DNA of 63,354 nucleotides, counting the filler, from Rozella allomycis CSF55 (Eukaryota): NCBI GenBank assembly GCA_000442015.1. It is 8 parts of 8 records of this genome, joined end to end, with 100 filler letters (N's around TTAATTAATTAA, not from the genome) between each part and the next. Parts side by side here need not be neighbours in the genome. Positions count along the whole stretch, not along the records: positions 11,056 to 36,968 come from KE561055.1; 7 more parts are not named here. One strand, given 5' to 3'. Below are positions 1-38,509 of the stretch, piece after piece (positions within the stretch are counted from its first letter, which is position 1; every line of letters starts with the position of its first letter). The position numbers and the translations under genes were made by a program. The notes under the pieces are model-generated. The model searched no databases, was not told the origin of the DNA, and saw only the letters and a list, made by a program, of their open reading frames with translations.

Positions 1-1176
1 GGAGAAAAGATTGAAGGCTATAAGATGCTGGTTAATAAGCTTGACAAGTATCAATATTATACATTGTATTATATAATCCAGCATTTGAGAGTGTAAAAGT
101 TTAAATAGGGGATGAAAGGGTTTGTACGCATCATCGGGATAATAAGATGACACCGGTGNCACTGCATTGTATAGTCGAAAGGATTAAGATCTGTTGGAGT
201 GTATAGTTTATCAGGGAGTGCGCCTAGGATTCAAAATTTGAAGCANTACTTGCATGGTATAGTCGATAGGATTAAGATCTGTGGGAGTGTATAGTTTATC
301 AGGGAGTGCGCCTAGGATTCAAAATTTGAAGCAAATGTTTGAGCAAGGTAAATACAAGTGTATTAATAGATAGAGTATGGGGCGATACCAATTGAGGATG
401 GTGAATTTTTGTCAGATATAAATTCGATTACAGGAGTGTTAAAGTTGTTTTTGAAGCAGTTACCCGAGGCATTGATATCAAAGCCTGGATATGAAGAGTT
501 TTTAGAGGTTTGTGGTAATTAATGAGTGGATTAAGAATAGTTAAAAGTTGTGAAATTGGAGAAAAGATTGAAGGCTATAAGATGCTGGTTAATAAGCTTG
601 ACAAGTANAGGATATGAAGAGTTCTTAGAGGTTTGTGGTAATGAATGAGAGGATTAAAAATAGTTAAAAGTTGTGAAATCGGAGAAAAGATTGAAGGCTA
701 TAAGATGCTGGTTAATAAGCTTGACAAGTATCAATATTATACACTGTATTATATAATCCAGCATTTGAGGGTGTAAGGATTTAAATAAGGGATGAAAGGG
801 TTTGTACGCATCATCGGGATAATAAGATGACACCGGTGGCGATGGGAAGTGTTTTTGCTCCGTTATTTTTCCGATCAGTTAAAGAAGAAACTAGCATACC
901 GTTTGCTGATCAGATAGTTGAAATATTGATTGAAAAAGCTGATGAAATATTTAGTGAAGTGAATTAACAATTGTAATAATAAAATAAAATCATTTTTAAA
1001 TTTGAATTTAATAAACTTTTTAAAGACTTTAAAATTNGACACCGGTGGCGATGGGAAGTGTTTTTGCTCCGTTATTTTTCCGATCAGTTAAAGAAGAAAC
1101 TAGCATACCGTTTGCTGATCAGATAGTTGAAATATTGATTGAAAAAGCTGATGAAATATTTAGTGAAGTGAATTAA
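1..1176 (+). CDS. RhoGAP-domain protein, 3' part, present as several overlapping near-duplicate fragments joined at single n's
   Basis: Manual translation gives LSGSAPRIQNLKQMFEQ, SITGVLKLFLKQLPEALI, LYYIIQHL and NKMTPVAMGSVFAPLFFR, all RhoGAP motifs. Stop at 965-967, with the end duplicated at 1038-1176. Confidence 0.85.
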
Positions 1177-1246: not shown

Positions 1247-4200
1247 CTAGAATGATTTCATGTTTAATCTTCTGTTTAAAGAATTCACTTGATTTTCTAA
1301 TCTTCTGATTGTAAAGTGATTTGAGTAAGTTTGGTTATTTGAAGGAGTAAAAGATTGAATTAAATCTTCCAATTTTTTGACTTGAAGTTTTAAAAGTAAA
1401 GAAGATTCATCTGCAGAAGGGGAAGTTGCATGTATAGAATTACCAGTAGCATTGCCAGTAGAATTACTGAATGATTTACCACTAAAATTCTCTACAAATT
1501 TACTAAATGAATTTCCATTAAAATTCCTTCCATTATTTTTTAACTTTTTGTTTTCATTGTAGAGAGAATTCAATTGAAGATTAAGAGAATCAATTTGAGA
1601 TTTAAAGAAATTGTTTGAATTGTTTAAAATTTCAATTTCTTGAATTAAATTTTTAATTTTCTCATTTGAAATGTTTTCATTTTCATTTAAATCTTTTAAT
1701 GAATCTATTTTGTAAATTTCTAATTTTTCTTTTAGAACTTTTAGAGCCAATTGCGAATTTTCTAGATTAGATCTATAAAAATTTTCATTATTTTTTAATT
1801 CATCAAAAAGATTTTTCATAATTTCTCTTCTTTGATTTGTTTGAAAAATTAATCTTCCAAACAATTCAATCAATTCTGGATTAATATCGTTGGGAATTTC
1901 TCTTCCTTTATCATCTTTCATTTCCTTTTCTATTTTAACAACATCTCTTCCTCCTTCTACATTTGCTAGTTTATCTATTCTTTCTCTGTCCATAACCCTC
2001 TCCCTTTCAATCTTCTCTTGGAGCTCCCTTTCAATAACTCTCTCCCTTTCAAACTTCTCTTGCCTTTCTTTTTCAAACATCTCCTTCTTCTCTCTTCCAA
2101 GTCTCTCTATTTCACTTTCTAAAATACAAATTCTCTTTTCATATTCAATTGCCGTTTCATTAAAATTTTCTCTAACTTTTTCCAATTCCAAATTTAAAAC
2201 ATTTTTATCAAAATTTAATTTATTAATTTCGTTTGTCAACAATTCAAGACTTTCAATATTTTTAGTTTGATTTTCTCTATCAATTTCATTTTCTAATTTC
2301 AATGAATTAAATTTATTTAAAATATTTTCATTTTCAATTTTAATTTCATTAAAGATTATTTCTTGTTCATTAATTTCATTCTTTAAATTCAAAATTACTT
2401 CTTCAGATTCAATTTTAGAAATTTCCAGAATTTCTTTTTCTTCTTTTAAAACTTTTAATTCTTGATTCACCCACGAAAACTTTTCATTCAAAGATTCAAA
2501 ATTTATTTTATAATTTTCATTTTCACTTTTAACTTGACTTAGTTGTTTTCTTGTATTCTTCAATTCAACAGAAATTGTATTCAACTCTTCAGATGATTCA
2601 ATTTCTTTTGTTTCTAATTTTTCAATATAAATTTTCAACTTTTCATTTTTTTCTTTCAATAAATTCAAATTTCTTTTTTCATTTTCAATTTCATCTTTTA
2701 GATTTGAAATTTCTTTAATTGAATTTTCATTTTCTTCTTTTTTAATTTTTATTTCCTTTTGAGTTTCTTCAATTAAAGAATCTTTTTCTTTCAAATTTGT
2801 TTCTAAAAATAGAATGTGGCTGTGTAGATCATCTATTTTTATTTCTAGATCTTTTTTTATTTCATTTAAATTAGTTTGATTAATTTCAAGATTAGAAATC
2901 AAATTTTTATTTAAATTAATTTCTAAATCTCTCTTTTCCAAATCTGACGTCAAAAGTAAAATCTTTTCTTTGCTTGAATTTATTTCTTCTTTTAAAGATT
3001 TGATTTCTTGTTTTGAATTTTCTAAATTTTCTTTTAAAGATTTCAATTTTTCTTTATTTGAATTTATTTCATTTAAGAATTTGTTTTTTGATAAGTTTAA
3101 TTGATTTTTCAAAATTTCAGTAAAATTTACATTCTTTAACAAATTTCTTTCTTCTTCTTGAACTTTAAAATCTAAAAATAATTCTTCAACAAGAAATGGA
3201 CATTCCTCTTCTTCTTCCATTGGACACAAATTTGATGATTTATGCAACGTCCACCAATTTACACAATTTTCATAAACTATTTTTATATTTTTATTTCTTT
3301 CATTAATCATTTCATTCTCTTTAATCATTCTATTTATTTCTTCTTCATTCTCTTTAATCTTTACCAAAAATTCATTTTCTATTCTAAATTTCAACTCTTC
3401 CTTTTCTCCCTTTATTCTTTCATTCTCCTTCTCTATTTCTATTATTTGATTCGATAACACCAAATTCTGTCTCGTCCACTCCATTATTTCTTGATAATGA
3501 ATCTCATTCTTCTCCGTAGATTTCTCTAATATACTCCTCATCTCTTTCTCCAATTCATCATATTTATCTTGCCAACTCTTAATCTCTCCCAATTTCTCCC
3601 TTTCTTTTTCTAAAATACTCTTCTGAAATTTCTCAATTGTCTTTTCAAATTCTTCTCGCTCCTTTTTCATCGATTTTTCTCTTTGCTCACTCAACTCTTT
3701 ACTAATTATACTTTGTCTCTTTATATTTTCAATCTCATTCATAAATTCCATCTCTAGATGTTTTTTGGTAAATTTTATCTCGTCTTCCTTACTCTTACTC
3801 AAAAATTGATTTTGATGCTTTAAGTTTTCATTAGAAACATTCAAAAGGTTATAATCATTTTGTAATTGATTATATTCATTATTTAACGTCGATATTTTAG
3901 TAGTCATCATTGACATTTCATTCTTTAAAACTCCATTCTCATCCTTCAACTGATTATGCAAGCTCAACTCATTCTTTAAATGCCTTGATTCTCTACTCAT
4001 TGCATCATTATTCTTCTTTAATTCAACAATGGTGCTATTCAGCCTTTCCAGCTCTCCACTCTTACTGTCAAGCTCAGATTTGGCTTTAACGAATTCATTG
4101 TATACTTTTTCATTATCATCTTTGAACTTTTTATTTTCAATACTTGTCTTTTCATTTTCACTTTTAATCATTTCCAATTCCTTAGCCATTCTTTCAAGAT

Positions 4201-6154
4201 CCTTGGAATCTTTCTCATTCTGCAACGTTAATCTTTCTATCTCGCCCGTTTGTTTCGCATAAAGATATTTTAATTTCACAAGGTTCACCAATAATGATTT
4301 GCCTTCTCGTTCGCCCTCTTTGGATGCAGTCTGCGTTAATTCCGATAATACATCATTTATATCATTTGCAGCAATCTCATCGTCAACATATCTCCCAAGA
4401 CTGAAAATAACGTCTTGACTTTCTTTAAAGTATTTCTCCCTCTTTTTTTTCTCATTCTCATATTTTTGCTTCAATTCTTCATTCTCCCTTTGTATAGCCT
4501 CGACCGCTTTTTCATTCCCATTCAAGCTTTTCAAATTTTCATATTTCAGAATCATCTCGGCCAAATTTTCTTCAATCGATTTTCTCAACTTTCGTTCACA
4601 GTCTAAAATTCTCTCGATTTCATTTAAATTATCTTGCAGAAATACCAAAGAATCATTAGATTCACTCTTTTTTAATTCGCACATCCTACTCTTTGCATCC
4701 ATCGCAGAATCTAATGTAGGCAATGACGACTGTGAATTAGACAATTCATTCTTAAACTTATTAAAACTACTTTCGTTTCGTTTTTCTTTCTTTAGATTTT
4801 CATTCTCTTGCTCCAGTTTCTTGATTTCCATCTTCAATATTGACACTGTTGATTTCTCTATTGCCAACTCCTTTTCTGCAACAGATATCCCACGATCATT
4901 AATATGTTCAATCGTAAATTCACGTCCCTCCCTCTGCCTACTAAACTCGCTCATTAAATTCGAAATGTGATCCTCGTGTGACCTGCAAACTCGTCTTTCA
5001 AATTGCAACTCGTTTCTCAACTGCTCAACCAACTCATCCTTGCCGGTCGCTTTACTAATCTCATTTTTAATCATTTCCCTCAAGTTAAATTCTTCATTCA
5101 AGCTGCTTTGATATACTTTATTCATCAAAAATAGTCTCTCGTCCCTCTCATTCTCTTCACATTCTCTCTCCTTTGTAAACAATTCATTTGCCTTTATCAA
5201 CTCTTCGTTTTTTCTTTTCTCTTCTTGCAATTGAGTTTCAATCTTATTAATCTCTTCCTGCATGTCAAACACAATCGATTCCCTGCTTTCGCTTAATGAT
5301 TTCATTAAGCGGTTTTCATTTAAAGTCAAAGTTGCATTCATTCTACATAATCCATCTTTCAATTCTTTGTTTTGCTTGTCCATATCATTCACAGAAAGTT
5401 CTAATTTTTCAAATGAAGAATAATCGCTCAACTTTTTTATGCTTGGAAACTCCAGAGTTTTCAACTTTACATAAAATTCATCCATTTTATTTTGAATGCA
5501 ACTGGAATGTTCCTTTATCTTTTGAATGGTTAACTTGTACGCATTATTCGCCTTTACTAAATCATCTTTTTCTTTTCTCAACAATAAATTCTCGTTTCTT
5601 AGGCTTTGGATTTCCTCGTTGATATCAAAAGTCAAGTCATTTCTTTTCATTTCATCAACATCTCCTGTTTTCATCGAATTATCAACATTCCTTTCCATCT
5701 TCAAGTTTTTTATTTCATCCATAAGTTTTTTATTCAACTTTCTCAAACTTTCCAGATTATTGTTCAAAGCCAAGTTTCTATCGCCGTTCAATTGAATATC
5801 GGATTTGCTTCGACTAATGGCCACATGCAAATCTAAATTTTGGGATATGGCTTTCTTTACTATTGGATGACACAAATGCTTCATTTGTATCCACATCAAA
5901 ATTCTATCTTAAGTGGACCATCTTTTTTACTTTTTCTGGTTCCATAACAAAGCACTTTTTGTTGTTGGCAACTAAGACTGTCTATGAGAAGTTATAACGA
6001 GTAACAATAAAAAAATTAAGATTCGGAGACACATCTAAGTTTGACATCCCACTAGGCTTGAAATATCAAGAAAAAGCGGAATTTATTGTAAACTTCGCGT
6101 TTTAAGTTTGAGAGATGATGATAAAACAACCCATTTTCGCAGTTTCCGATAAGG
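1247..6154 (-). CDS. Very long coiled-coil protein (>1550 aa), copy/haplotype A
   Basis: 1550-aa E/K/N/L-rich ORF with heptad character and no recognisable catalytic motif. The 5' region is cut at n6155. Confidence 0.75.
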
Positions 6155-6155
6155 N

Positions 6156-8550
6156 GTTTTGATGCTTTAAGTTTTCATTAGAAACATTTAAAAGGTTATA
6201 ATCATTTTGTAATTGATTGTATTCATTATTTAACGTCGATATTTTAGTAGTCATCATTGACATTTCATTCTTTAAAACTCCATTCTCATCCTTCAACTGA
6301 TTATGCAAGCTCAACTCATTCTTTAAATGCCTTGATTCTCTACTCATTGCATCATTATTCTTCTTTAATTCAACAATGGTGCTATTCAGCCTTTCCAGCT
6401 CTCCACTCTTACTGTCAAGCTCAGATTTGGCTTTAACGAATTCATTGTATACTTTTTCATTATCATCTTTGAACTTTTTATTTTCAATACTTGTCTTTTC
6501 ATTTTCACTTTTAACCTTTTCCAATTCCTGAACCATTCTTTCAAGATCCTTGGAATCTTTCTCATTCTGAAACGTTAGTCGTTCTATCTCGCCGGTTTGT
6601 TTCTCATAAAGATATTTTAATTTCACAAGATTCACCAATAATGATTTGCCTTCTCGTTCACCTTCTTTACCTGCAGTCTGCGTTAATTCCGATAATACGG
6701 CATTTATTTCATTCGCAGCAATCTCATCATCAACATATCTCCCAAGACTGAAAATAATGTCTTGGCTCTCTTTAAAGTATTTCTCCCTCTTTCTTTTCTC
6801 ATTCTCATATTTTTGCTTCAATTCTTCATTCTCCCTTTGTATAGCCTCGACCGCTTTTTCATTCCCATTCAAGCTTTTCAAATTTTCATATTTCAGAATC
6901 ATCTCGGCCAAATTTTCTTCAATCGATTTTCTCAACTTTCGTTCACAGTCTAAAATTCTCTCGATTTCATTTAAATTATCTTGCAGAAATACCAAAGAAT
7001 CATTAGATTCACTCTTTTTTAATTCGCACATCCTACTCTTTGCATCCATCGCAGAATCTAATGTAGGCAATGACGACTGTGAATTAGACAATTCATTCTT
7101 AAACTTAAAGCTATTTTCATGTCGTTTTTCTTTCTTTAGATTTTCATTCTCTTGCTCCAGTTTCTTGATTTCCATCTTCAATATTGACACTGTTGATTTT
7201 TCTATTGCCAACTCCTTTTCTGCAACAGATATCCCCCGATCATTTATATTTTCAATCGTAAATTCACGTCCCTCCCTCTGTCTACTAAACTCGCTCATTA
7301 AATTCGAAATGTGATCCTCGTGTGACCTGCAAACTCGTCTTTCAAATTGCAACTCGTTTCTCAACTGTTCAACCAACTCATCCTTGCCGGTCGCTTTACT
7401 AATCTCATTTTTAATCATTTCCCTCAATTTAAATTCTTCATTCAAGCTACTTTGATATACTTTATTCATCAAAAACAGTCTCTCATCCCTCTCATTCTCT
7501 TCATATTCTCTCTGCTTTGTTAGCAATTCATTTGCTCTTATCAACTCTTCGTTTTTTCTTTTCTCTTCTTGCAATTGAGTTTCAATCTTATTAATCTCTT
7601 CCTGCATGTCAAACACAATCGATTCCCTGCTTTCGCTTAATGATTTCATTAAGCGGTTTTCATTTAAAGTCAAAGTCTCAATCATTCTACATAATACATC
7701 TCTCAATTCTTTGCCTTGCTTGTCCATAGCATTCACTGAATGTTCTAACTTTTCAAATGAAGAATAATCGCTAAACCGCTTTATGCTTGGAAACTCCAGA
7801 GAATTCAACTTTACATAAAACTCATCCATTTTGTTCTGAATGCAACTAGAATGTTCCTTTATCTTTTGAATTTTTAGCTTGTACTCATTATTCTCCTTTG
7901 CTAAATCATCTTTTTCTTTTCTCAATAATAAATTCTCGTTTCTTAGGCTTTGGATTTCCTCGTTGATATCAAAAGCCAAGTCTTTTCTTTTCATTTCACC
8001 AACATCTCCTGTTTTCATCGAATTATCAACATTCCTTTCCATCTTCAAGTTTTTTATTTCATCCATAAGTTTTGTATTCAACTTTCTCAAACTTTCCAGA
8101 TTATTGTTCAAAACCAAGTTTCTATCACCGTTCAATTGAATATCTGATTTGCTTCGACTAATGGCCACATGCAAATCTAACTTTTGTGATATGGCCTTTT
8201 TTACTATTAGATGGCACAAATGCTTCATTTGTATCCACATCAAAATTCTATCTAAAGTGGACCATCTTTTTTTACTTTTTCTGGTTCCATAACAAAGCAC
8301 TTTTTGTTGTTGGCAACTAAGACCGTCTATGAGAAGTTATACGAGTAACAATAAAAAGGTTAAGATCCAGATACAAATTAAGTTTGACATCCCACTAGGT
8401 TTGAAATATCAAGAAAAAGCGCAATTTATTGTAAATTTCGCCTTTTGAGTTTGAGAGATGATGATAAAACAACCCATTTTCGCAGTTTCCGATAAGGGTA
8501 ACACCTAATGATTGGGCAAATCTTCCTTGGATGTCTGATCTCATTCATAA
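6156..8550 (-). CDS. Second, diverged copy (probable allele) of the N-terminal half of the coiled-coil gene
   Basis: ORF 6102..8300 aligns residue by residue with the first ~700 aa of ORF 1247..5899, with scattered substitutions. It starts at a single-n junction. Confidence 0.75.
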
Positions 8551-21813: not shown

Positions 21814-23008
21814 TTATTTAATTTGCAATAATTCTTCCCTGCGATTCAAAAAAAGATTGTTCAAGTATTCAATGTTATCAAAAGTAGCTTTCATGCTCGT
21901 TTTTTGACTGTCTGTTAGCGAATCACCTCTCCTCATTTCTGCTCCTTTGATCCTAGCCATTATTCTCTGGTTCGCTTCAATTCTTGCAGAAATTTGTTTA
22001 ATTACCGGCTCCACATCCGATTTGGACAGCTTGAGCGCTCTAGCAGAGTTTACTATGTTTTTCATTACTCTGGGTGCCCACGAACTTGTATATTCATGTA
22101 TAGATTGAGTTTCATCCGGGTTCGGAATTTTAACTCCTNTCATCTGGGTTCGGAATTTTAACTCCTCTTAGATATCTCTTGTACTGTGCGATTAGCTGCT
22201 GTCTGTCTTCAGGTTTCAAATCTTTAAGTTTTTCCACTGAGTACCAATCCTTTAAAGTAGTGGTTACATCACCATGTCCCTTGAAACTGGCGTACTCTGG
22301 AATTCTTTGGTAAGATCTCTGCCATTCCTTCAATTCGTCGGCATACTTTTTTGTTTCACGATACTTGCTCTCGTCATACGTTTTCGATTTCTGCATTTTC
22401 GCAAGCTCTTTATCCAAAAGCCCAATTTTCCAAGACACTTGATTTAACAGCGGCTCAATCTGCGGCTTTTTCAGTTTAAGAATATCATTGGACTCTCTAA
22501 TATTTGACAAAAACCTGCTGCCATCGCTGGGCGACAGTTTTTCGAGATTGAATTTTTTGAGGAATTTGCTGTACGATTCGTAAAGCTCGAGGCGGTCAGG
22601 CGGCTGCAATTTGTTGATGTTGTTTAAGCGGTACCAGTCTCCGAGCGTATCTGCAATTCGGCCGTTACTTGTGAAGCTGTTTCTGTGGGCGTAATAGTTT
22701 GGAGGAGGCGCAAGGAGGCTTTCTTGATAGCTTGGCGGATGCACTGATGATGGGCTGTAGGACGGTGGACGAGGAGCGTCATTGACAATGGACTGTTGCA
22801 CTTGATTACGGCTAGTTCCAGAATGTAAGGGTGTTTGTGTTGTCGAACGAGCTGGATCATATGGCTTTTTCTGGAATGTCGATTTTAGTCTGTTCCAGGA
22901 AAATAGTTTTGGTTTTGGTGTGTTTACCAGAGGTGAAGATGTTACTGTGTTGATGCAAAATATTGCAATCAGGAATGGAAAATAGAAATGTTTGCTTATT
23001 CCCCGCAT
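21814..23008 (-). CDS. Secreted orphan protein with PPxY cluster and a twice-repeated helical domain (effector candidate)
   Basis: Signal peptide MRGISKHFYFPFLIAIFCINTVTS-SP. ORFs 22130..23008 and 21814..22143 join across the n duplication (GVKIPNPD overlap). Intronless. Confidence 0.75.
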
Positions 23009-23272
23009 TTTTGATTTAAATGAAACAAGGGGACTAGGAGTCAGAGCCGAATATAGATTCTATTTTTACCACAATGAACTAGCCACTTTAAATGAAAAGT
23101 ATTGATATGGTAAATTTGAAGATATTAGACCTAGGTAATTGACACATCAAACCTGATCACTCTTTTTCGGTCACCCCCATTCGAATACTGAAGTGACCCA
23201 ATTTTCTTAAAATTTGATGTTTTGTTTAAAAAATGCATTCAATTTTTAATTCAAACGTATTGGAGACTAAAT

Positions 23273-24294
23273 CTATTTTATTTGCTGTAAATCTCGCTGG
23301 CGATTCGATAAGACGATGTTTTGGTGCTCGAGTTCAAAATAATCAAACTTCATGCTCTTTTTTTGACTATCTGTTAGAGATTCGGGTCTAGTTGTATCTG
23401 TGAGTTTGGCTTTGATCTTGTCCATAATTTTATCAATCGCTTTGATTCTTGCAGAGAGTTGATCAATTAGCGGTTCCACATCAGATGTGGACAGTTTGAG
23501 CGTTTTTGCAGAGTTCACTATATTGTGCATGACTCTGGGTGCCCAAGAGCTTGTATAATCGTTTACAAGCTGACTTTCATTAGGAATCTTAAGTATTCTT
23601 AGATACCTTTTGTACTCTGCAATTAAATATTGCCTGTCTTGTTCTTTCAAGTCTTCGAATTTCCCTGCTGAATACCATTCTTTAAGAGATTTCGTTACAT
23701 CCCCATTTACCATAAAACTGGCGTGCTCTGGAATCTGCTCATAAGATTTTTTCCATTCTTTTAGTTCATCGGAGTACATTTTTGTCTCCCGATATTTATT
23801 CTCGTCAAAAGTTTTTGATTTCTTCATTTTTGCAAGCTCTTTATTCAAAGTTTCAATTTGCTCAGATATTTTTTTTATCATTGGCTCAACAAGTGGTTTT
23901 TTCAGTTTCAAAATGTTATTGGACTCTCTGATATTCCATAAAAATTGGTTCCCTTCGCTAGGGGACAATTTCCCGAGATTGAAGTTTTTGATAAATTTGT
24001 TATATGATTCATACAGCTCGAGACGATCCGGTGGTTGCAACTTGCTGATATCATTTACCCTATACCATTGTCCAAGCGTATCAGCAATTCTACCGTTACT
24101 TTTGAAGCTTGTACTGCTTGCATAATAACTTGGGACAGGGGGCATTTCTTGGTTGCCAGTCCGTCTTGTATAATAGTTTGGGGAGGAATCATGGGGTTTT
24201 CATGATCGCTTTGTGATGATCTGTAACGAGGTAAAGTAGAGGATGGCCGTTGCTCATGTTGATGTTGTGCTATTTATGAAAAAAATAGCAAAAC
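23273..24294 (-). CDS. Tandem paralogue of the 21814-23008 protein; its 5' end is out of frame (possible pseudogene)
   Basis: Shares SNGRIADTLG.WYR..I.KLQPPDRLELYESY and YTSSWAPRVM.NIVNSA with its neighbour. A signal-peptide remnant FAIFFINSTTST* lies in another frame. Confidence 0.7.
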
Positions 24295-25039
24295 NTCTAA
24301 GACATCGGCCAATACAGAACATTAAAAGAATAACGGAACGGGAAGTAGTATTACTGCTTAATCAACACGTTACAAGATAATATACAACACATTAGCATCT
24401 GCCACCAGAATGTCGCACATTAAACCCCATCAAATTGTCAACTGTATTTTAAAAAACAATTTTCACATATTCACATGACTCTGTAGTATTTAACGCTTTA
24501 CCAAAACCTGACTCAAATTCAGTCCTTTCTCCGAGACACAGTCAATCATGCAGGACGACAAAAACTAACAACACATAGGCGTACTGATCAGTGTACACAC
24601 GTATCTTGTTAATTTTGTTCAATCCGTAGTGCGCTCAAGCTTCTACCGCAGCACGGTCCACTCTCATTACGGTATGATGAATTGCCTCCTTACGTCAATT
24701 TACTACCCAGCTGAAAGGCAACCACTTGACGTCGGACCACTAGAAAGTTAAATTATACGTAAGGCCGATATGACGGAAGATACAACATCTATAACTGTTA
24801 ACGATTGGAATTACAAATTGTCATTTATTTTCCTGAGTTATCTGTCAATTTGCTTTCTGTATCAATTGCATTTAAGAATTAGAATGTGTCGATGCAATTT
24901 AACAATGGTATTGGCACAATTCAACATCAAGGCAAAGCAGTTTTTATCGCACTTTAAACAAATTCCGTATATATTCTTGATTATCAGGTTGAAACAAACA
25001 GAGTCTGGAGAACGAACAAAATAAAAAATAGACATTACT

Positions 25040-25249
25040 TACTAAATTTATGGCATCAAAGATTGGGACATATAAGGGAAACATATCTAATGACGTCATC
25101 CACTCAACATATGGTTCGTGGAATTCCAGGCAGGCGAACATTTAGAGTTTTGTGAAATTTGGGCCAACGCGAGTGTCTTTCAAGGGAAACAGACCTGAAG
25201 CAAAAGACATTGGAGAAGTTTTGCACACAGATTTGTGTGCAGACAAATA
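25040..25249 (+). mobile_element. Ty1/copia pol fragment (GAG-pre-integrase and start of integrase)
   Basis: LWHQRLGHIRE...MVRGIPG..FCEI..RVSFKGNRPEAKDIGEVLHTDLC. Confidence 0.8.
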
Positions 25250-25544
25250 NGGTCGTCGACTGACTCGACACTGGACTCGACGCATCAAGAAGTTTGATAT
25301 ATAGATTGTTTTATTCAGTTCAGTGAGTTTAAGAACAGAAGTGAAGAAAGAAATCCAAAGATTCTAGATTTAAGGAATAGACATGCAGTGATAGGAGACA
25401 GAGTGATGAGGAAAGGGAAGCGAGGAATGCCTTTGAATCAAGCTCAAGTTCATGAATTTAACATTTTACATATAGATGATAATGAAATGACAATAAAGGA
25501 TGTTTGTTTTTGAAGGATGATCTTTCATGATGAAGTCTTAGCCC

Positions 25545-27125
25545 ACAGATCTCGCCACGGGCCCACGATATGCAAAACTCAAAAGAAAGAGTAACGTACC
25601 GTAGTGGTCGGTGTCTCAGCCGGTGGCTTTGTACCAAAATTCCAGGGTTCTGCTAGGGTCCTGGTCTTGGACTGCAGCATAGAAGCCTCGTAAGCTGCCG
25701 TCCAAAACCTATTATAAATAAATAATAAAATTTACAGAAATTTCTAGAAAGTTATTTACAAACAAATTCTGTAATTTTCTTTGTAAAAAAATTACATGAT
25801 TGCGTCTCAAAAACAGCACCGCAGACATTACTCTTTGCTTGATGAAACCGACGATATTGATTCACTGTTAGCGAATTTCTAAAAAAAATTAAAAACAATA
25901 AAATTATTTATTAATTATTATTTAAATATTTAAATTTATTTCAGCAATTCCAAACTTTGAGTACGCTTGTTGTCTAAGGAATGGATTGGAACTTTTATCC
26001 CTTATCTGAGCAACAATCCCCGTCATGCCATTAATGTTTGAATGTTTTGTAATTAATTCTTTAGGTAAAAATCCTACTCTACATGTTTCAGATTGCACCC
26101 CATTTTTGTTTTCCAGCCTCACTGCAAACACTGCAAGCTCCTCAGATTCAAAACAACCTTAAATTAATTAATAATTATGATTTAAAGTTTAAATNGCCAT
26201 ATCAGAGTGTTTTTACCATCTGGACTTTCACTGCAGCTTTACACATCTTTGTAGCTTAGGGAGATTTTAGGACTAAGCGTCGACCAGCCTATGACATCGG
26301 CCAATACGGAAATTCCATTAACAGATCACTTTTGGAAAGTTACAATCTCTTGTCAACTTGNGCAGATTGAAGACTCAAAGCGCTCAAATCGCTCAATTAC
26401 GTCGGGTCTCGAACGGTTGCCGACTGGCTCTTGGCCAACTCTATATTCAACTGAACTATGCCTTAATTAAGGAGTGGCCGAACTGTGCTGATTTACTATA
26501 ATATCTGATTAAAGCAACCGTTTAAAATATTGGCGCGGGACATTATGCGTCAAAATTTGTCATAACAACATTTTGGTCGATTAGTGCTGTTAGTCATTAA
26601 TGTATTANTAGCAAAACGTCAGGGCTCGAACGGTTGCCGGCTGGCTCATGGCCAACTCTATATTCAACTGAACTATGCCTGCCTTACTGAGTGGCCAAAC
26701 TGTGCTTATTTAATATGATATCNCTGTTATACATATAACACAGATCTAGCCACGGGCCCACGATATGCAAAACTCAAAAGAGTAACGTATGATCGTTTAT
26801 CATTGGAATGTACTAGGCTTTTATAAATTATATATAGTAATAGTCAATGCAATCATGAATAACTGATATAATGCATAAAATTTGACATAAAACATGAAAC
26901 AAAATGGTTCAGATGCCAGCCACNAATAAGTGCTGTTAATCATTGATGTATCAATATTTTAGACCATTTATTCATGAAAGAAATTAGAAAATAGACAAAG
27001 ACTAATTAGACTAGGATGATAACATTTCCTGTTATACATATAACATAGCCCTACAGATCTAGCCACGGGCCCACGATATGCCAAACTCAAAAGAGTAACG
27101 TATGATCATTTATCATTGGAATGTA
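25545..27125. repeat. Mosaic of dispersed repeat fragments
   Basis: cagatct(a/c)gccacgggcccacgatatg..aactcaaaag occurs at ~25547, 26741 and 27054. ctcgaacggttgccg.ctggctc.tggccaactctatattcaactgaactatgcc occurs at ~26408 and 26625. Confidence 0.75.
25922..26160 (-). CDS. HIRAN-like domain fragment (possibly transposon-associated)
   Basis: EELAVFAVRL...TCRVGFLPKEL resembles the HIRAN 'AI.V....VG(Y/F)LP(R/K)E' motif. Confidence 0.4.
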
Positions 27126-27228
27126 CTAGGTTGTTATAAAATATATATAGTAATAGTCAATGCAAAATGATTTACTGCTGTCTGCTATAATGATATAACG
27201 AAATGGTTCAGATGCCAGCCACCTAAAC

Positions 27229-27353
27229 CAGGGTATAATCTGCGGGTTGGGTCGCGGGTCGAGATTTTGGAAGTTGAAATTTAGTGGGGTGGGTCGCAAG
27301 TTACCTCTTCGGGCTGGTTGCGGGTCTTGAAATCCGACCCGTGCAGGGCTCTG
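27229..27353 (+). mobile_element. hAT-like transposon terminus or MITE remnant
   Basis: GC-rich island with repeated cgggt(c/t) subterminal motifs, ending GACCCGTGCAGGGCTCTG (reverse complement CAGAGCCCTGCACGGGTC, a hAT-type end). Confidence 0.5.
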
Positions 27354-28095
27354 GGTATACCCCAAACGCCAAGGAGGTAAATTTAAAGATAAAAGACGAC
27401 TTTAAAAAACTCATCGATTTTTTTCGATTGTCCTCATGGGCATCATTAGCAATTAAATGCTCTTGAAAGAACATTTGAACCTCTGTGGAGCGCTGAAACA
27501 TATCTAAGGCTCTTTCTTGACTTGGAATGCAGCTATCAATGTCTTGAAAAGTATGATTAACCTTTTAAACTAAATAAACGAATGCTTTGCCAAGAATTGA
27601 CCAGTACATAACCCATATTTGTCTGGATCCCTCGAGGCGATCCAAGCCTATGCAAAGAGGAAAATGGTTCCAGTCATCCATTAATCCATTTATTGAATCA
27701 TTGATGAATTCATTATCATCGGGAAGAGTCATATCGTCGCAAAGTGCCTTCATTAATGGGAAATTATCACAATGGCATACGTAACCTATTTCCCTTGTAA
27801 AATCGATTTTCNACCTACAAGTTAATAAAACAATCCATTCTTAAGCACACATTGTCCCATCAATTATTTATTAATAAAAGAAGCCCATTGATCAAAATAA
27901 TTATGGACTTACGCTTGCAAAAGAGTTGATGACTGAAAAAATAGGGCATTTATATCTATTTTGTACGAGTTGTAAGGTTGAATCATTAATATTATTCAAG
28001 AGCTTGTCGAAGGTTGATACAACAGATGTTTTAAATACTGATATATTATATGCTGTAAAGTGCTAATATTGTGTAATCTAGCCGAGCCACACAAA

Positions 28096-28893
28096 ATGTT
28101 TTTCAGATTTTTTGTTTTGTTTGCAGCCTTTCTGCTGCCTTCTTCTTGCCGTAAAATAGACGAGTTTCCAAATGTATTCTATGGCATTCAAAGAAACAAC
28201 GATGCTTCCGACAGTCAAGACAAGCTTACCGTTGTTGGCGACTCGGTTACATACAAAGTAGCCTTCCCTAAAGAATACGAGCTAAACGATTTAAATTTTT
28301 TCTACAACAATGAGCTAGTTTCAGTCGACGCCAATTCTATACATCAAGAAAACGGCCACAAAACCTTTACATTCACTGCAATAGTGAAGGAAGAGCCTAT
28401 CACCTTTACATTCAAAGATAATGTGTCTAGAAGTGCAAAGCCAGGCATCCCTCTGCACGTTTATTCACTCAGCCAGCTGGTAGCCAGTGACAGTTCCTCC
28501 GCGGTCGATAATGAGCTATCGTTTTCGATAAAAGCAGACTGCAAGACGAGAAAGTCGATTGATGGGTACTGGTACATTGACGGCCAGCGACTTGAAAATC
28601 CCTCCAATTTCTGTGACGGCATTGAATACACTTTTGCGGAAAAGGTTGCAAGAGGCTATCATAAAAAGATCCAGTTTGCAAGAGGTGATTTGTTGATGGA
28701 TGTTTTGGAGCTTCATGATGCGAGAATCGATGTTGATGAGATTAGGGATGCATTTGGCACGCTTGGTACGTGGTTTATTGTGGGAGCGGTTGCTGTAGTG
28801 CTCGTGATTGTTGTTTTGGTGGTGTGCTGTTGTAGAGTTTGTTGTGGTAGGAAGAGTGGCGATAAGATTAAGAGGTACCACAATAAAGTTTGA
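28096..28893 (+). CDS. Type I single-pass membrane protein (orphan)
   Basis: Signal peptide MFFRFFVLFAAFLLPSSC, beta-rich ectodomain, TM helix, then VCCCRVCCGRK and a short basic tail. Confidence 0.8.
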   Translation: MFFRFFVLFAAFLLPSSCRKIDEFPNVFYGIQRNNDASDSQDKLTVVGDSVTYKVAFPKEYELNDLNFFYNNELVSVDANSIHQENGHKTFTFTAIVKEEPITFTFKDNVSRSAKPGIPLHVYSLSQLVASDSSSAVDNELSFSIKADCKTRKSIDGYWYIDGQRLENPSNFCDGIEYTFAEKVARGYHKKIQFARGDLLMDVLELHDARIDVDEIRDAFGTLGTWFIVGAVAVVLVIVVLVVCCCRVCCGRKSGDKIKRYHNKV

Positions 28894-29225
28894 ATTTGAC
28901 AATAAATATTAACATAGTTTGATAACTTGCTAAAATGGGATTACAAAGACCATCTATTTTAATTGATTTGGTTATTAGTTTAGCACTTTGGAAAACAGAC
29001 CGTCGGCAACCACTTCACTTTGGTTGCATCCCTAGCCTAGCATCAAACTCATAGCATTTTTTGCAATTGTCTTTAATAATTCATTGGTTGAGGAATGCTT
29101 TTACCCAAAAACCTTTATATATTAGTGCCAGTAGAAAGTCATTAGATTTTTGGACTGGGTTGTTAGTTTAATACTATTCGAAATAAATCATACCAACATA
29201 TTAATTATTAACAAGAGATTTTATT

Positions 29226-30079
29226 TTACCAAAGTAAGGTGTCAATGAAATCGTTATGGTAAGAAGTAGGTTTGTCGGCCTCTTTTGGCACATTTTCTTG
29301 GTTTGTTTTATTGTTAAGTACAATTAAAGAACCTATCGGCAGACTTGAAAATCTAGTGTTGGAAGAAATGAAGAGATTTGACATTGTAGCACTCTTATTA
29401 CCTGCATGAATGGACGACCGCCTACAGATAAAGTTAATACAATATAAGCACCTTCTTTCTGGAGAAAATATTGAAAAGGCATTTGAACTCTTGTCGCAAA
29501 AGATCTTAACAGCTTCAAATAATGGTTGTTCCAGAATTTGAAAATCAACTGAATCTATCATTTCATCGACTGATTCGAGGGCTTTATTTAAGCTATCATT
29601 TAATCCAAAAATAGTTATGAGAAATAGCAAGTCAAAATGAAACTGAATGAAATGTTTTTGTGTCAATTTTAAGTTCTCGTAAACATTACCTACGCGTTGA
29701 ATGACTTGATTAATAATTGAATTCAAAATGTCCTTGTATTTAACACAAAGTGTTTTTACTTTATTTGTTTCTTCACAGCAAAGAAGATTATTTTTAAACT
29801 TGAATAAAAAGTCCAAAATAGTCAAGGATGGCTCATGTGGAATCTCAACTGTAAAGCTTTCTTCACCTTCTACTTGAATCAAATTTTCTAATATAAAGAA
29901 TGTTATTCTTTTTACCTTGCCAAGTAAATGAAATATTTTCCAATTTCTTTGAGAGTTCTTCAAAATCACAACAACTTAATATCCAATTTAGAAACGTAGA
30001 GCAATACAAATCTTTGGCTTTATTCATAAACAAAGACTGATTTTCCATTCCTTTCGTCATTGTCTGGTAAAGTTCAATG
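29226..30079 (-). CDS. COG1: Conserved oligomeric Golgi complex subunit 1, C-terminal part
   Basis: TWQ..IQVEGEE..VEIPHEPS..LDFLF, QFHFDLLFL, IDSVDFQIL and RFSSLPI parallel the COG1 C-terminal motifs. Confidence 0.6.
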
Positions 30080-30402
30080 NAGATCCATTTCTAACGCCCC
30101 GACAGACGACAGTAGTTGTACAGTTGCAAGTCCTCATTGTGAATTCGAACTTCTTGATAGAAAAGTGAGACGGAATAGAATACTCTCTGCCTGATGTGGC
30201 TCGTGTTTTGATGAAACATTTAATTTGGCTCCCCGTTGACCCGCTCCATGAATAAATTATTATTATTCTATTTCATATCGCATATTTTTAACAAGTTTAT
30301 AATTCTAAATCCTCACTTTGAAATGGCTCTATCAACAAACTAAAAATTGCTTGATTGTCAATTATATTATAAACATACATTGTTACTTAAGTAAATTGTT
30401 CT

Positions 30403-32023
30403 TTATTCATTCTTTGGAAGTGGCTTGTATTCCCCGCGTGAATACCTTTGAATTAAAATCAAAATTACAAGTATAATTGATCCAAAAATAACATAAAAAT
30501 TATCATAAAAGTATTTTTGGGAGACCTAGATTGTAAGAATAGAAATTAAGGTACCTTGAAAAATGTGGCCATCTTTCCCCTCATGCTAGTCCCCTGTAGT
30601 CATACTTATGGAAGAAAATTACAAATAAATCGCCAGATTTTGCTTTATGTAAATTTTCTTTTATATTTTCAATTTCTATTTCATCTATTTTATAGAACAT
30701 TTCATCATTTGGATTTAAAGCCAGAAGATTCCATTCATAAGAAGAATCGAAGTTGAAGACATTTGAAGAATATTGAGAATACAAATTGGCGTTCATGTAG
30801 CAAAATAAGACATCTCTATCAAAATTCTCTGCAATTGATTTGAATTTTAATTCCAATGAGTTTAAAATCTCTGAATTTTTAACAATCAACAAAACAATCC
30901 ACTTTTTATTATCTTCTAAAATGAATTGTGAAGTCTTAAAATTTAATTCGCTTACTATTGGCAAATAATGATCTTTAATCCAATTCTCTAATTTATTTGA
31001 TTCTTCAAACGTTATTGGATTCTTTCCTTTGTAAACGTTCAACGTTGATTTAGAATTGCTATTATTGAAAATGTAAAAGCTTGCCATCGTTCGATACTTT
31101 AGTGCTGTATTCTTAAATCTTCTCTTAAAATCCTCCGTTGGATTCACTAAAACAAATCTTGTTCCTTTTTCATTTTCAATCTCTTCTATTTTCGCCACAG
31201 ATTTGAAAAATGGTCTTTCGTCTTTGAATTAATCATTTACTTTGAATTTTCTTCAATAAATTTCAAAAGATCTTCCAATTTTCTAGCGCCACTATATTTG
31301 CTCTGATAATCCCTTTCAATGCTTTATTAGTAATTATTATCATTTACTATATTAAAGTTGGATATCCATTAATTCCATATTTTCTGCAAATATCTCCAAA
31401 TGATTCACAATCAACATCCCCCACGTTAACATTGGTAGCCTTCTCAGCCAATTCTGTCCACGTTGGCGCTAAACTTTTACAATGCCCACACCATGGGGCG
31501 AAAAATTTTATAAACCATCTGCCCTCTTTTATTTGATTAACATTCTTTGTATTTATTTCAATCAAATGTCCAGGATTAACAGGGAGGTCAGTATCACCGC
31601 CATCATGGTCTTCGTTGACATTCTTTTCAATAAATTCAGTCAATTTCTCAACAGTCCTGTAATCTTCAAATTCACTAACTGGTTTGCCTTGCTTATACAG
31701 AATTATTGTTGGCAACCCGTTGACATTCATTTGCCTGCAAAACTCTCTTACTCTCTCCCCAAATAATTACCATTGTGCAACTTGCAATTAACTTGATTTA
31801 GTTTCAATGTTGATGATAAAGACTCGTTCTTTTTGATTTTTTCGTCAAATTGCTCGTAAATGGGCCTGAATTCTTGACAGTGAATACAGTCGGGTGAATA
31901 GTACTTTACTAGATGGAATCTCTCTGATATCGATGATGAAAATGACTGAGGATCGATTTCAATTATTTCTGTGTATATGACTAGTATATGAAGTGCCCAG
32001 ACTATAAAAGTTAATGGCTTCAT
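30403..32023 (-). CDS. Membrane-anchored multi-thioredoxin-domain protein disulfide isomerase (Eps1-like)
   Basis: Signal peptide, YSPDCIHC and FAPWCGHCK active sites, GYPTL, a b-type domain, then a C-terminal TM and ...KPLPKNE. Confidence 0.88.
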
Positions 32024-32508
32024 TTTGTAATTTTAGAAAACAGCTTCAATTTCTTTTTCTAATTGTTATTAAAAGGAATTCGAAAAAAAGATTTATCATT
32101 TAGGTTGTCCGTTGTAGTGTTTTTTATGTGAACAAGGATACTTTGCGTAAAACTCTTCCTCAACAGGGAGGGTGCTCTACTCACGATACCGTTTTGGAGA
32201 ATCTAATATGTTTTTCCTGGGTAATTAGGCTTGATTCAACGCAGCCATCGAGAGTCAAATTGATCAGCAAAAGGAGCGTGCCGATGATTATGATCCTTTG
32301 AGTCATCAGAATGTCATGAGATATATTTAACAAGACCCAGTCTCTCGCTCATTCCATGCATTATGGAAAGAGAGACAAAGAAAAGAAATAAACCAGCAGC
32401 ATACCATGACATCAACGAAATATTAGCACTATTGTTTCCATTAGACAATAGTGCAGATGAATAGTATAATACATTTAATAACATATATAAATATATCTAT
32501 TCTATACT

Positions 32509-33123
32509 TTATTGATGAGTGAAGATATCTTCATACCTGGGCGGCGACATCAATGATTCATCATACGTTGGCGGTCTTTTCTTATCACATTGATTAAATT
32601 TTTCAATCATCGATTTCAGTTTTCTATTTGATTTCACAGATTTCATGTATATCGAAAGATACCCAGGGCTGTTTTCATGCAATGACCTTTGGCCATGGTC
32701 ACTGTGTAATGGATCTATTGCGTTCGCTGCAGTAGTTGCATTCATCCCGCCTGAGTCATCATTCCTTCGCGCCAACGCTCTAGCCAGTTTATGAGAAAAT
32801 TGGCCTTTTTCTATAATGCCTCTTGTTTCTTCAAGGACTGTAAAGTGCGATTTAGCCACCTCGTTTTCAAGCAATATACTAACAAGTCCATTAATTGTAG
32901 AATCCGCGAATGTTTTATGCCGCATTTTAATTTGAATTAATGCTACATTAAAACCCACGTTTGTGACCTTTCCTAAACGTATGTTCTCTTCGGTAAGAAT
33001 TGCGTCCAGGATGTTTGTGTGCGGGGAAATAGTGGGCTTTGAAAAAAAGTCTATCAAAACTCGGTCTAAATGAGAAGCTGCACTTAATGAAACAATGATA
33101 AAAATAAAACAGAAAAACTTCAT
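32509..33123 (-). CDS. Secreted orphan protein with two C-terminal PPxY motifs
   Basis: Signal peptide MKFFCFIFIIVSLSAA. Ends RPPTYDESLMSPPRYEDIF. Intronless. Confidence 0.75.
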   Translation of the reverse strand: MKFFCFIFIIVSLSAASHLDRVLIDFFSKPTISPHTNILDAILTEENIRLGKVTNVGFNVALIQIKMRHKTFADSTINGLVSILLENEVAKSHFTVLEETRGIIEKGQFSHKLARALARRNDDSGGMNATTAANAIDPLHSDHGQRSLHENSPGYLSIYMKSVKSNRKLKSMIEKFNQCDKKRPPTYDESLMSPPRYEDIFTHQ

Positions 33124-37068: not shown

Positions 37069-38509
37069 AATCTCTTGCTGGCTCTGTAGTGTTTTCGAGA
37101 ATTGATCTAAAGAGTGGTTTTAATCAAATCCCGCATCAAGGCCAAAGATCGTGAAAAAACAACCTTTACATGGTGTGCTCAACAGTACCACTTTGTTTGT
37201 GCTCCGCTCGGATTTAAACCTATACCTTCTAAATTTCAAAAAGTTATAAGTCAAATCTTCCTTAAATATAGTTTTGTGAAAGTCTACAACGATGATATAG
37301 TCATTTTCTCATCAAGCTTCGAAGAACATCTTAGACATTTGAAAATTGTTATATAAGATCTAAATTCCTTTTGTTAAAATCAATTTTGATAAATGCGAGC
37401 TTGGGGTCGACGAAATGATAGTGCTTGGTAATCATATTAGTAGATTTGGTATAAAACTTGCTGAACAAAAACTATTGCAAATGGATGAATGGACAGAACC
37501 TAAGACGGGGTCTGAAAAACACAGACATCTTGGATTTTTTAATTAATTTCGAGATATGATCCCTATGTACTCTAAAATTGTGGGTCCGTTGGAGAAACTA
37601 CGTTGTCAAAGTGTAATTGAATGGAATGAAGAATATTGGGCTATTTATACAAAATTGCGAACTATTCTATCCTCAGAAATAATTTTATCATTTCCTGATT
37701 TTGATGTAATATTTGACGTAGGTACAGACGCCTCGGATAAAGGAATTGGAGCTGTACTTTATCAAACGATTAATGGAAAAACTAAATACATAAACTTTGC
37801 TGCTCGTAGTTTACACGACGGTGAAGAGGGATACGGAGCCACAAAGCGCGCATTACTTGCTTTTGTGTTTGCTCTACAAAAATTTAGACCATACTTATGG
37901 GGAACAAAGTTCAATCTATACACAGATCACAGATCGTTGACATACATGTATAGTCAAAAACATGTGAATCAAATGCTAAACAATTGGTTAAAAATTTTAT
38001 TAGAATATGATTTTAATATATACCACAAACCAGGATTCTTAAATATTCTACCTGATGCCATAAGTAGACTTTATGATGCCGACCCCGAAATCGAAGAAAT
38101 AGAATTAAAAGTATGGAGCACTACAGTGCAAAAAAATATTGAATGGAGATTAAATCCTAAAATATTTGAAAAATTAAATAAAGAACTTGGACCATTTGAA
38201 ATTGATGCATTTGCAAGTCCTATCAATCATCATTTACCTATGTACTACGCTAAAGACATAGATGCTCTAACACAAAATTGGAAAGACAAATATCTTTGGA
38301 TCTATCCACCAGAGAACTTAATTGATAAGGTGATTGATAAAATTTATAAAGATAAAGCCAAAGCGGCTATTCTTACTCCCTTTGATAAAACTAAATCATA
38401 TTTCACTAAATTGGAAGCTATTAGNAATCATATTTCACTAAATTGGAAGCTATTAGTAGAAAACAGCCTTTAATAATTTTCAATCAACCAGGTGTATTTA
38501 TAGCTCATC
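37069..38509 (+). mobile_element. Ty3/gypsy pol fragment: RT (disrupted), RNase H, then an in-frame Dam-like adenine methyltransferase domain
   Basis: RT: FSRIDLKSGF, KTTF, VYNDDIVIFS, with stops and frameshifts. Ty3 RNase H: TDASDKGIGAVL, YTDHRSL, KPGFLNILPDAISR. Then WRLNPKIF..GPFEIDAFAS..DALTQNW..WIYPP. Confidence 0.9.

What the first reader, a model, noticed from the sequence alone, without database searches (positions are those of the whole stretch)
21814..33123. Unrelated secreted orphan proteins sharing clustered PPxY motifs: candidate Rsp5/NEDD4-hijacking effectors
Seen: the signal-peptide protein at 21814-23008 has PPSY, PPSY and PPNY within ~25 aa (~22690-22775). Its paralogue has LPRY, SPNYY and VPSYY in the same region. 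An unrelated secreted protein at 32509-33123 ends in PPTYDES...PPRYEDI. Known: (L/P)PxY motifs bind WW domains of cytosolic Rsp5/NEDD4 E3 ligases, which a luminal or extracellular protein of a free-living cell would not meet. Inference: these proteins are exported into a host cytoplasm by an intracellular parasite and act as adaptors that redirect the host HECT ligase.
Basis: partly seen in the sequence, partly recalled or inferred. Interest (0 to 1): 0.75.

Follow-up and report, generated by a model that had tools for sequence, protein, structure and literature searches.

The report
Rozella secreted proteins bearing Rsp5-docking motifs
A parasite that lives inside water-mould cells encodes unrelated exported proteins of unknown fold that keep, across their distant relatives, the short docking motif for the Rsp5/NEDD4 ubiquitin ligase, which suggests, untested so far, that it borrows its host's protein-tagging enzyme.

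Summary
The motifs are real. Gene A (23008-21814) carries PPSY, PPSY, PPNY in a disordered stretch behind a predicted signal peptide. Gene C (33123-32509) ends in PPTY and PPRY. Near-identical named proteins are from Rozella allomycis, an endoparasite of Allomyces, which has three RSP5 genes in A. macrogynus.

The motifs persist in distant paralogues: a 26%-identical family-A member has PPSY, PPGY, LPGY, another has LPSY, LPRY, PPIY, and the 33%-identical paralogue of gene C ends in PPEY.

Genome-wide enrichment is modest (7 of 31 sites, P=0.0015; 4 of 28, P=0.07, without this window), and 0 of 23 sampled secreted-type ORFs carry PPxY. About 12 signal-peptide plus F-box-like ORFs fit the same strategy. 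No fold match was found. Binding, expression and passage into host cytosol are untested, and Rozella has its own Rsp5.

Best reading: exported PY-motif mimics that recruit host Rsp5 (0.55). An earlier scan note found PY-tailed membrane proteins elsewhere in this genome.

The parts
21814..23008 (-). Gene A: single-exon secreted-type orphan, about 388 aa; split in the assembly by the N at 22139
22937..23008 (-). Gene A predicted signal peptide (about residues 1-24)
   Evidence: hydropathy rule, best 8-mer 3.4; helix 10-23 in model
22862..22903 (-). Basic, aromatic segment (residues 36-49) shared by three family-A members; possible amphipathic membrane anchor
   Evidence: alignment A3; hydrophobic moment 1.36-1.63, not above the protein's own 90th percentile of 1.51 for P0001, so weak
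22757..22768 (-). PY motif 1, PPSY
   Evidence: aligns with PPSY of P0002 and LPSY of L077
22727..22738 (-). PY motif 2, PPSY
   Evidence: aligns with PPGY of P0002 and LPRY of L077
22694..22705 (-). PY motif 3, PPNY (PPTY in P0001; VPSY in gene B)
21817..22675 (-). Helical region of gene A, two internal repeats of about 100 aa (27% identical), no known family or fold
22118..22166 (.). Assembly gap at N 22139 with a 21-nt duplicated overlap
23273..24145 (-). Gene B: tandem paralogue of A (about 65% identical), 290-aa frame with no signal peptide and no canonical PY motif; probably truncated or decaying
24173..24234 (-). Motif remnants upstream of gene B: LPRY (24234-24223) and SPNY (24184-24173), in different frames
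   Evidence: same sequence in contigs of runs X1 and X4
32509..33123 (-). Gene C: 204-aa secreted-type orphan, small helical domain plus disordered C-tail
33076..33123 (-). Gene C predicted signal peptide (about residues 1-16)
   Evidence: hydropathy rule, best 8-mer 3.58
32563..32574 (-). PY motif PPTY; aligns with the terminal PPEY of the paralogue P0009
32533..32544 (-). PY motif PPRY (absent from the shorter paralogue)

Best explanation
Genes A and C belong to two small, unrelated, Rozella-restricted families of exported proteins that carry functional PY motifs. Shown in sequence and models: signal-peptide-like start, no TM segment, canonical motifs in disordered segments, motifs kept while flanks diverge, and a helical domain of unknown fold. 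Inferred: they enter the secretory route, cross or sit on the host-derived membrane around the plasmodium, dock on the WW domains of the host's Rsp5 through two or three motifs, and use the helical domain to bring a host target or the interface membrane to the ligase. The likely outcome is ubiquitination and vacuolar sorting of host membrane proteins, or remodelling of the compartment.
For: Conservation found without using the motif: P0002 came from a profile whose best stretch covers the helical region only, is 26% identical to P0001, and has 3 canonical motifs in its N-terminal 140 aa (0 of 50,000 shuffles). P0009 and P0010, 33% identical to gene C, have a signal peptide and end in PPEY aligned to PPTY (153 of 50,000 shuffles). 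Position 1 toggles P/L and x varies while P2 and Y4 stay, as the (L/P)PxY consensus predicts (PMC6063350). Of 11 substitutions between gene A and P0001, 3 fall in or beside the motifs and none on a core residue. The motifs lie in low-confidence, unstructured segments, as typical PPxY do (PMC8509885). Mature P0001 and P0002 have no Cys and no N-glycosylation sequon (122 and 127 of 5,000 shuffles). The host species A. macrogynus has 3 RSP5 genes (PMC5913265 Table 1). About 12 ORFs pair a signal peptide with an F-box-like segment, a second ligase-recruiting module with no luminal use. Nematocida signal-peptide proteins reach host cytoplasm (PMC5423893).
Against: PPxY is not general among secreted-type ORFs: 0 of 23 in a 400-kb sample. 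Enrichment falls to 4 of 28 sites (P=0.07) without this window, 2 of the 7 signal-peptide calls look false, and there is no enrichment against the sample's Pro-Pro share (21 of 108, P=0.80; 17 of the 21 come from one doubtful ORF). Gene B lacks canonical motifs and a signal peptide. P0002 as annotated has no signal peptide. P0002 and L077 motifs are partly short internal repeats and not independent of each other, and L077 was first found by a motif search. The parasite lies in a compartment formed from host plasma membrane, and no translocation route is known to me. Rozella has its own C2-WW-HECT ligase. Soluble multi-PY proteins activate Nedd4 ligases poorly unless tethered (PMC5892558 abstract). 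A PPPNY also follows the signal peptide of a Cys-rich, extracellular-looking protein (L100).
Confidence: 0.55

Rival explanations
1. The motifs are functional but serve the parasite's own Rsp5: the hydrophobic start is an uncleaved anchor, or is skipped, so the PY region faces the parasite cytosol and acts as an ordinary adaptor or turnover signal.
For: Rozella keeps an RSP5 gene (PMC5913265). Several PY-cluster ORFs in this genome are membrane proteins with PY tails (L048, L071 twice, L147). P0002 and gene B are annotated without a signal peptide.
Against: The segments in A, C, P0009 and L077 are short, start within the first residues and end in small residues, as cleavable signals do (sequence). 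P0002 begins at the segment that follows the signal peptide in L077, so its start may be called too late. Conserved housekeeping adaptors would be expected to have relatives outside Rozella, and none were found.
Confidence: 0.2
2. The proteins reach host cytosol and bind Rsp5, but as substrates or late-domain-like recruiters: they are ubiquitinated themselves to draw ESCRT to the interface or to time their own decay, and redirect the ligase to no third protein.
For: PPxY-NEDD4 recruitment of ESCRT is the viral use of the motif (PMC10159163). Gene C's model has weak whole-domain likeness to VHS/ENTH/CID folds (best such row Z 6.7, rmsd 3.6, 117 aligned). Family A has a basic aromatic segment that could tether it to a membrane.
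Against: Z under 8 is common for helical models (note) and the model is poor (pLDDT 63). Three motifs plus a two-repeat helical domain suit an adaptor at least as well.
Confidence: 0.15
3. The motifs are a by-product of Pro/Ser/Tyr-rich low-complexity repeats in fast-evolving secreted proteins and bind nothing.
For: 16.8% of human proline-rich proteins contain PPxY (PMC8509885). Short repeats copy the motif in P0002. Gene B has lost it. The L100 protein carries one in an extracellular-looking context.
Against: Gene C's family is not proline-rich, yet both members place PPxY at the same C-terminal column. Composition-preserving shuffles rarely give the clusters. In the three family-A N-termini 9 of 15 tyrosines are the Y of a canonical motif.
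Confidence: 0.1

Closest known systems
Viral PPxY proteins that recruit NEDD4-family ligases (Ebola and Marburg VP40, RSV Gag; PMC6063350, PMC10159163)
   Same: A parasite protein carries a canonical PPxY that would dock a host HECT ligase.
   Different: Here the carriers are signal-peptide proteins of a cellular eukaryotic parasite with a fungal host; they must first cross a membrane, and binding is untested.
Cellular PY adaptors of Rsp5/NEDD4: alpha-arrestins (ARTs) and NDFIP1/2 (PMC6063350)
   Same: Two or three PY motifs in a disordered segment next to a separate folded module.
   Different: No arrestin domain or TM segments; a signal peptide takes them out of their own cell's cytosol.
Toxoplasma GRA35, which recruits host ITCH to the vacuole membrane (PMC10936166)
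   Same: A secreted protein of a vacuole-dwelling eukaryotic parasite engages a host NEDD4-family ligase.
   Different: GRA35 binding needs the C2 domain of ITCH, and the main text has no mention of PPxY; GRA35 sits on the vacuole membrane.
Salmonella SteD-TMEM127-WWP2 (PMC9993115) and Ehrlichia TRP120/TRP32-NEDD4L (PMC8112483)
   Same: Effectors that route host or own proteins to a NEDD4-family ligase.
   Different: SteD borrows the PPxY of host TMEM127 and TRP32 lacks a PPxY; the Rozella proteins carry their own motifs.
Nematocida displodere NemLGF2 secreted RING-domain family (PMC4928854)
   Same: A lineage-specific secreted family in a related parasite clade, proposed to act on host ubiquitination.
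   Different: RING domains in a very large family, against short linear motifs in families of 2 to 4 members.

Membership tests
PY-motif ligands/adaptors of Rsp5/NEDD4 | Canonical (L/P)PxY motif | tested here: met
   3 in gene A, 2 in gene C; none in the gene B frame
PY-motif ligands/adaptors of Rsp5/NEDD4 | Motif in a disordered, accessible segment | tested here: met
   pLDDT under 50 for residues 23-111 of P0001 and 186-204 of gene C; shallow alignments also lower pLDDT
PY-motif ligands/adaptors of Rsp5/NEDD4 | Motif kept among diverged homologues | tested here: met
   3 of 4 family-A members and 2 of 2 family-C members; all from one species
PY-motif ligands/adaptors of Rsp5/NEDD4 | Tyr-dependent binding to WW domains | not testable with these tools
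   needs pull-down or two-hybrid; a complex prediction was not run
PY-motif ligands/adaptors of Rsp5/NEDD4 | Separate module that binds a substrate | tested here: inconclusive
   helical domains present, no family or clear fold match
Alpha-arrestins (ARTs) | Arrestin N and C beta-sandwich domains | tested here: not met
   no Pfam arrestin hit; both models are all-helical
NDFIP/Bsd2-type membrane adaptors | Several TM segments with PY motifs on the cytosolic side (recalled definition) | tested here: not met
   highest 19-residue hydropathy after residue 30 is 0.19-0.87
Host-translocated effectors of intracellular eukaryotic parasites | Organism is an intracellular parasite | tested here: met
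   near-identical proteins named R. allomycis; endobiotic unwalled parasite of Allomyces (PMC6317583)
Host-translocated effectors of intracellular eukaryotic parasites | Cleavable signal peptide, no TM | tested here: inconclusive
   passes my hydropathy rule, which also makes false calls; SignalP not available
Host-translocated effectors of intracellular eukaryotic parasites | Lineage-specific, paralogous, fast-evolving | tested here: met
   only Rozella-named relatives, apart from one spurious low-complexity hit
Host-translocated effectors of intracellular eukaryotic parasites | Expressed during infection and present in host cytosol | not testable with these tools
   needs infection-stage RNA and localisation
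VHS/ENTH/CID helical domains (gene C) | Eight-helix superhelical fold | tested here: inconclusive
   several such rows at Z 5.5-6.7 on a pLDDT-63 model, none at Z 8; Foldseek best E 0.49

The most novel reading that the evidence does not exclude
Rozella exports a modular toolkit of ubiquitin-ligase recruiters into its fungal host: several unrelated orphan families carrying clustered PY motifs for Rsp5, alongside a dozen or more signal-peptide F-box proteins for SCF, each joined to its own target-binding domain. PY mimicry, known mainly from viruses, would then have arisen repeatedly in a phagotrophic eukaryotic endoparasite, and these proteins would mark a translocation route across the host-derived membrane.
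Probability: 0.35. Interest if true: 0.82.

Novelty: new variant of a known kind. Interest (0 to 1): 0.62.

Why it matters
My paper searches turned up no described effector mechanism for Rozella, the earliest-branching relative of microsporidia and fungi. If these proteins dock host Rsp5, they give the first concrete and cheaply testable handle on how this parasite controls its host. The motif can be mutated, Rsp5 is conserved in yeast, and Rsp5 governs the transporters and membrane traffic that an endoparasite would gain from redirecting (established knowledge). It would also extend PPxY mimicry from viruses to secreted proteins of a eukaryotic parasite, and imply that soluble proteins cross the membrane around the plasmodium.

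Tried and rejected
1. 'F-box swap' in family A. The third paralogue in G000 (L004) appeared to start with a signal peptide and an F-box-like segment in place of the PY region. Rejected: P0006 and P0007 show that this start belongs to a neighbouring 543-aa gene, and P0002 shows the helical part with a PY-rich N-terminus. The L004 frame is an assembly chimera across an N. That chimeric row was in alignment A2, used for the fold and the profile search.
2. Gene B's signal-peptide exon: not found by blastn or tblastn in 23250-28100 or any held locus. Contigs of three runs join 24284/24294 to 26362, into repeat DNA.
3. Fold and family searches led nowhere: Pfam, Foldseek (best E 0.084 and 0.49), VIA-align (best Z 9.1 and 7.7, generic helices), ESM Atlas. 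P0005 is a low-complexity repeat protein and was dropped as spurious.
4. Expression: no RNA holder listed, which is no evidence either way.
5. Raw DNA counts of tandem motifs do not exceed the reversed-pattern control: 8 vs 5, 14 vs 17, 11 vs 21. The signal appears only after restricting to open frames. The PPxY-then-stop pattern was too common to use.
6. A WW-peptide complex prediction was not run: only the parasite's own Rsp5 was at hand as a stand-in, and any PPxY would tend to pass by likeness to solved structures.
7. LPxY-LPxY pairs and single LPxY sites were not searched genome-wide. Multi-exon secreted genes escape my ORF-based count.
8. No supplements were read; secretome tables of Rozella genome papers could bear on the novelty claim.
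Full report
Observation. A six-frame scan finds 7 PPxY matches in the window, and 5 lie in two minus-strand genes: gene A (23008-21814; PPSY, PPSY, PPNY within 25 residues) and gene C (33123-32509; PPTY, PPRY in the last 21 residues). Both begin with a short hydrophobic segment, have no later TM segment (my hydropathy rule), match no Pfam family and are unrelated to each other. Shuffles that keep composition give 3 PPxY in 18 of 200,000 trials for residues 24-111 of A, and 2 PPxY in 5 of 200,000 for mature C. These figures are post hoc.

Gene structure. Gene A looks split at N 22139, but the gap carries a duplicated 21-nt overlap. One contig of run X7 spans it with 28 gap letters, and P0001 is an unbroken 389-aa form differing by 11 substitutions and one insertion. 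Gene B (24145-23273, about 65% identical to A) has no signal peptide. Its LPRY is in a different frame from SPNYY and VPSYY, and the motif that aligns with A's PPNY is VPSY. Contigs of X1 and X4 show the same sequence there; one X5 contig has 20 gap letters at a place not shown. Database forms of B also start at the same Met (P0003, P0008).

Organism. Near-identical proteins are named Rozella allomycis. [quoted passage not shown] A. macrogynus has 3 RSP5 genes and Rozella 1 (PMC5913265, passages and Table 1 rows). I found the Rozella gene: three WW matches on C611 followed by a HECT match.

Conservation, the strongest evidence. A profile search returned P0002 through its helical region. It is 26% identical to P0001 and carries PPSY, PPGY and LPGY in its N-terminal 140 residues (0 of 50,000 shuffles). 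A further member, L077 on C769, has a signal peptide and LPSY, LPRY, PPIY; it was first found by motif search and then tied to the family (45% to P0002, E 1.9e-5). Across these, position 1 toggles between P and L and x varies, while P2 and Y4 stay. So 3 of 4 family-A members have three canonical motifs. Gene C has one paralogue, 33% identical, with a signal peptide, ending in PPEY-stop aligned to PPTY (153 of 50,000 shuffles). All relatives are from one species, so conservation between species is untested.

Structure. The AlphaFold model of P0001 is unstructured over 23-111, which holds the motifs, and helical over 112-389 (mean pLDDT 70), with two repeats of about 100 residues (27% identity, E 9e-14). 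The gene C model is a small helical domain with a low-confidence tail (pLDDT 63). Neither has a clear fold match. Several VHS/ENTH/CID domains appear for gene C at Z 5.5-6.7, a lead only. Mature P0001 and P0002 have no Cys and no sequon (about 2.5% of shuffles each), a weak hint of a cytosolic working place.

Enrichment. I listed all PPxY[DE] (53) and PPxYx[DE] (66) DNA sites in G000 and held DNA for all but one, an apparent duplicate. Of 31 distinct sites in frames of 100 aa or more, 7 lie in signal-peptide, TM-free ORFs and 3 in signal-peptide ORFs with a TM segment. The background is 40 stretches of 10 kb that I spread over large contigs: 423 ORFs, 23 of them signal-peptide and TM-free, 5.7% of residues. 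This gives P=0.0015, or 4 of 28 and P=0.07 without the window's sites. Two of the 7 calls (L063, L070) look false. Against the sample's Pro-Pro share there is no enrichment (P=0.80), though 17 of those 21 dipeptides come from one doubtful ORF. None of the 23 sampled ORFs has a PPxY. Among 10 held ORFs with two PY motifs within 40 residues, 4 are signal-peptide and TM-free (P=0.002; 2 of 8, P=0.07, without the window) and 2 more are type I membrane proteins. PY clusters are thus a feature of a few secreted families, not of the secretome.

Context. The genome has 54 F-box-like matches. Among the 30 best and 10 further regions examined, about 12 ORFs place an F-box-like segment right behind a signal peptide (15 rows less 2 duplicates and 2 false calls, plus 1). 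All 8 scanned match Pfam F-box models at E 0.0003-0.07, below the curated cut-off; two passed the cut-off in the genome search. An F-box works with cytosolic Skp1 (established knowledge), so this is separate support for export of ligase recruiters, though equally untested.

Mechanism. Most likely (0.55) the proteins are secreted, reach the host side of the interface and bind host Rsp5 through their PY clusters, with the helical domain supplying the target or site. Shown: anatomy, motif conservation, host and parasite Rsp5. Inferred: cleavage, translocation, binding, target. Soluble multi-PY proteins activate Nedd4 ligases poorly unless tethered or polymerised (PMC5892558, abstract), so membrane attachment would be needed; the shared basic aromatic segment of family A could supply it, on weak evidence. 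Rivals are use of the parasite's own Rsp5 (0.2), self-ubiquitination or ESCRT recruitment without a third-party target (0.15), and a low-complexity by-product (0.1).

Comparison and novelty. PY motifs bind WW domains of NEDD4-family ligases and are used by cellular adaptors and viral proteins (PMC6063350, PMC10159163, PMC8509885; passages). Toxoplasma GRA35 recruits ITCH through its C2 domain (PMC10936166, passages). SteD borrows a host PPxY and TRP32 has none (PMC9993115, PMC8112483; passages). Nematocida secretes RING-domain and other orphan families, some shown in host cytoplasm (PMC4928854, PMC5423893; passages). Searches for Rozella effectors, Rozella F-box or Rsp5, microsporidian PPxY and PPxY effectors (listings only) showed no report of this case; the library lacks most subscription papers and no supplements were read. 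An earlier scan note, e1-7125803, describes PY-tailed membrane proteins elsewhere in this genome; it is an unchecked lead. The proteins work like PY adaptors but are not arrestins or NDFIP proteins. Verdict: a new variant of a known kind, interest 0.62.

Noticed in passing
G000 C119, C723, C93, C387, C442 (L038, L154-L158, L160, L162); P0006: About 12 ORFs with a signal peptide followed at once by an F-box-like segment and then LRR, ankyrin or orphan domains: candidate exported SCF adaptors.
   Followed up: partly
L021, L022, L026-L037, L039, L040, L044: A large family of F-box plus ankyrin-like repeat ORFs without signal peptides.
   Followed up: no
L123:1008-1994 (-), G000 C645: Signal peptide, a J-domain-like stretch with HPD (recalled likeness; no Pfam hit), then repeats with PPNY and PPKY.
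   Followed up: partly
   Followed up: partly
L098:1029-2363 (-), G000 C36: Signal peptide and C-terminal TM segment, with PPAY plus acidic flank on the outer side of the membrane.
   Followed up: no
L153 (G000 C769:189100-193800): A tandem array of family-A genes alternating with signal-peptide F-box-like genes, scrambled into chimeric frames at single-N gaps.
   Followed up: partly
L141:3-236 and 327-674 (+), G000 C822: Two small duplicated ORFs with PPSY near the start and a Cys-rich C-terminal segment, like membrane-anchored Rsp5 adaptors (recalled likeness).
   Followed up: no
window 24296-26361 and 27812-30080: Contigs of up to three runs skip these stretches, so they may be misplaced scaffold pieces or haplotype-specific insertions; the second holds the type I membrane protein gene 28096-28893.
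   Followed up: no
window 37556-38473 (+): RT RNase H plus Dam-methylase domains, typical of a DIRS-type retrotransposon remnant (recalled classification).
   Followed up: no
window 1247-5896 and 6102-8240 (-): Two near-identical tandem copies of a long coiled-coil orphan without Pfam match.
   Followed up: no
window single-N gaps at 20996, 22139, 38425, 52103: Several single-N gaps have duplicated flanks of 18-31 nt that create false frame breaks or false repeats.
   Followed up: partly
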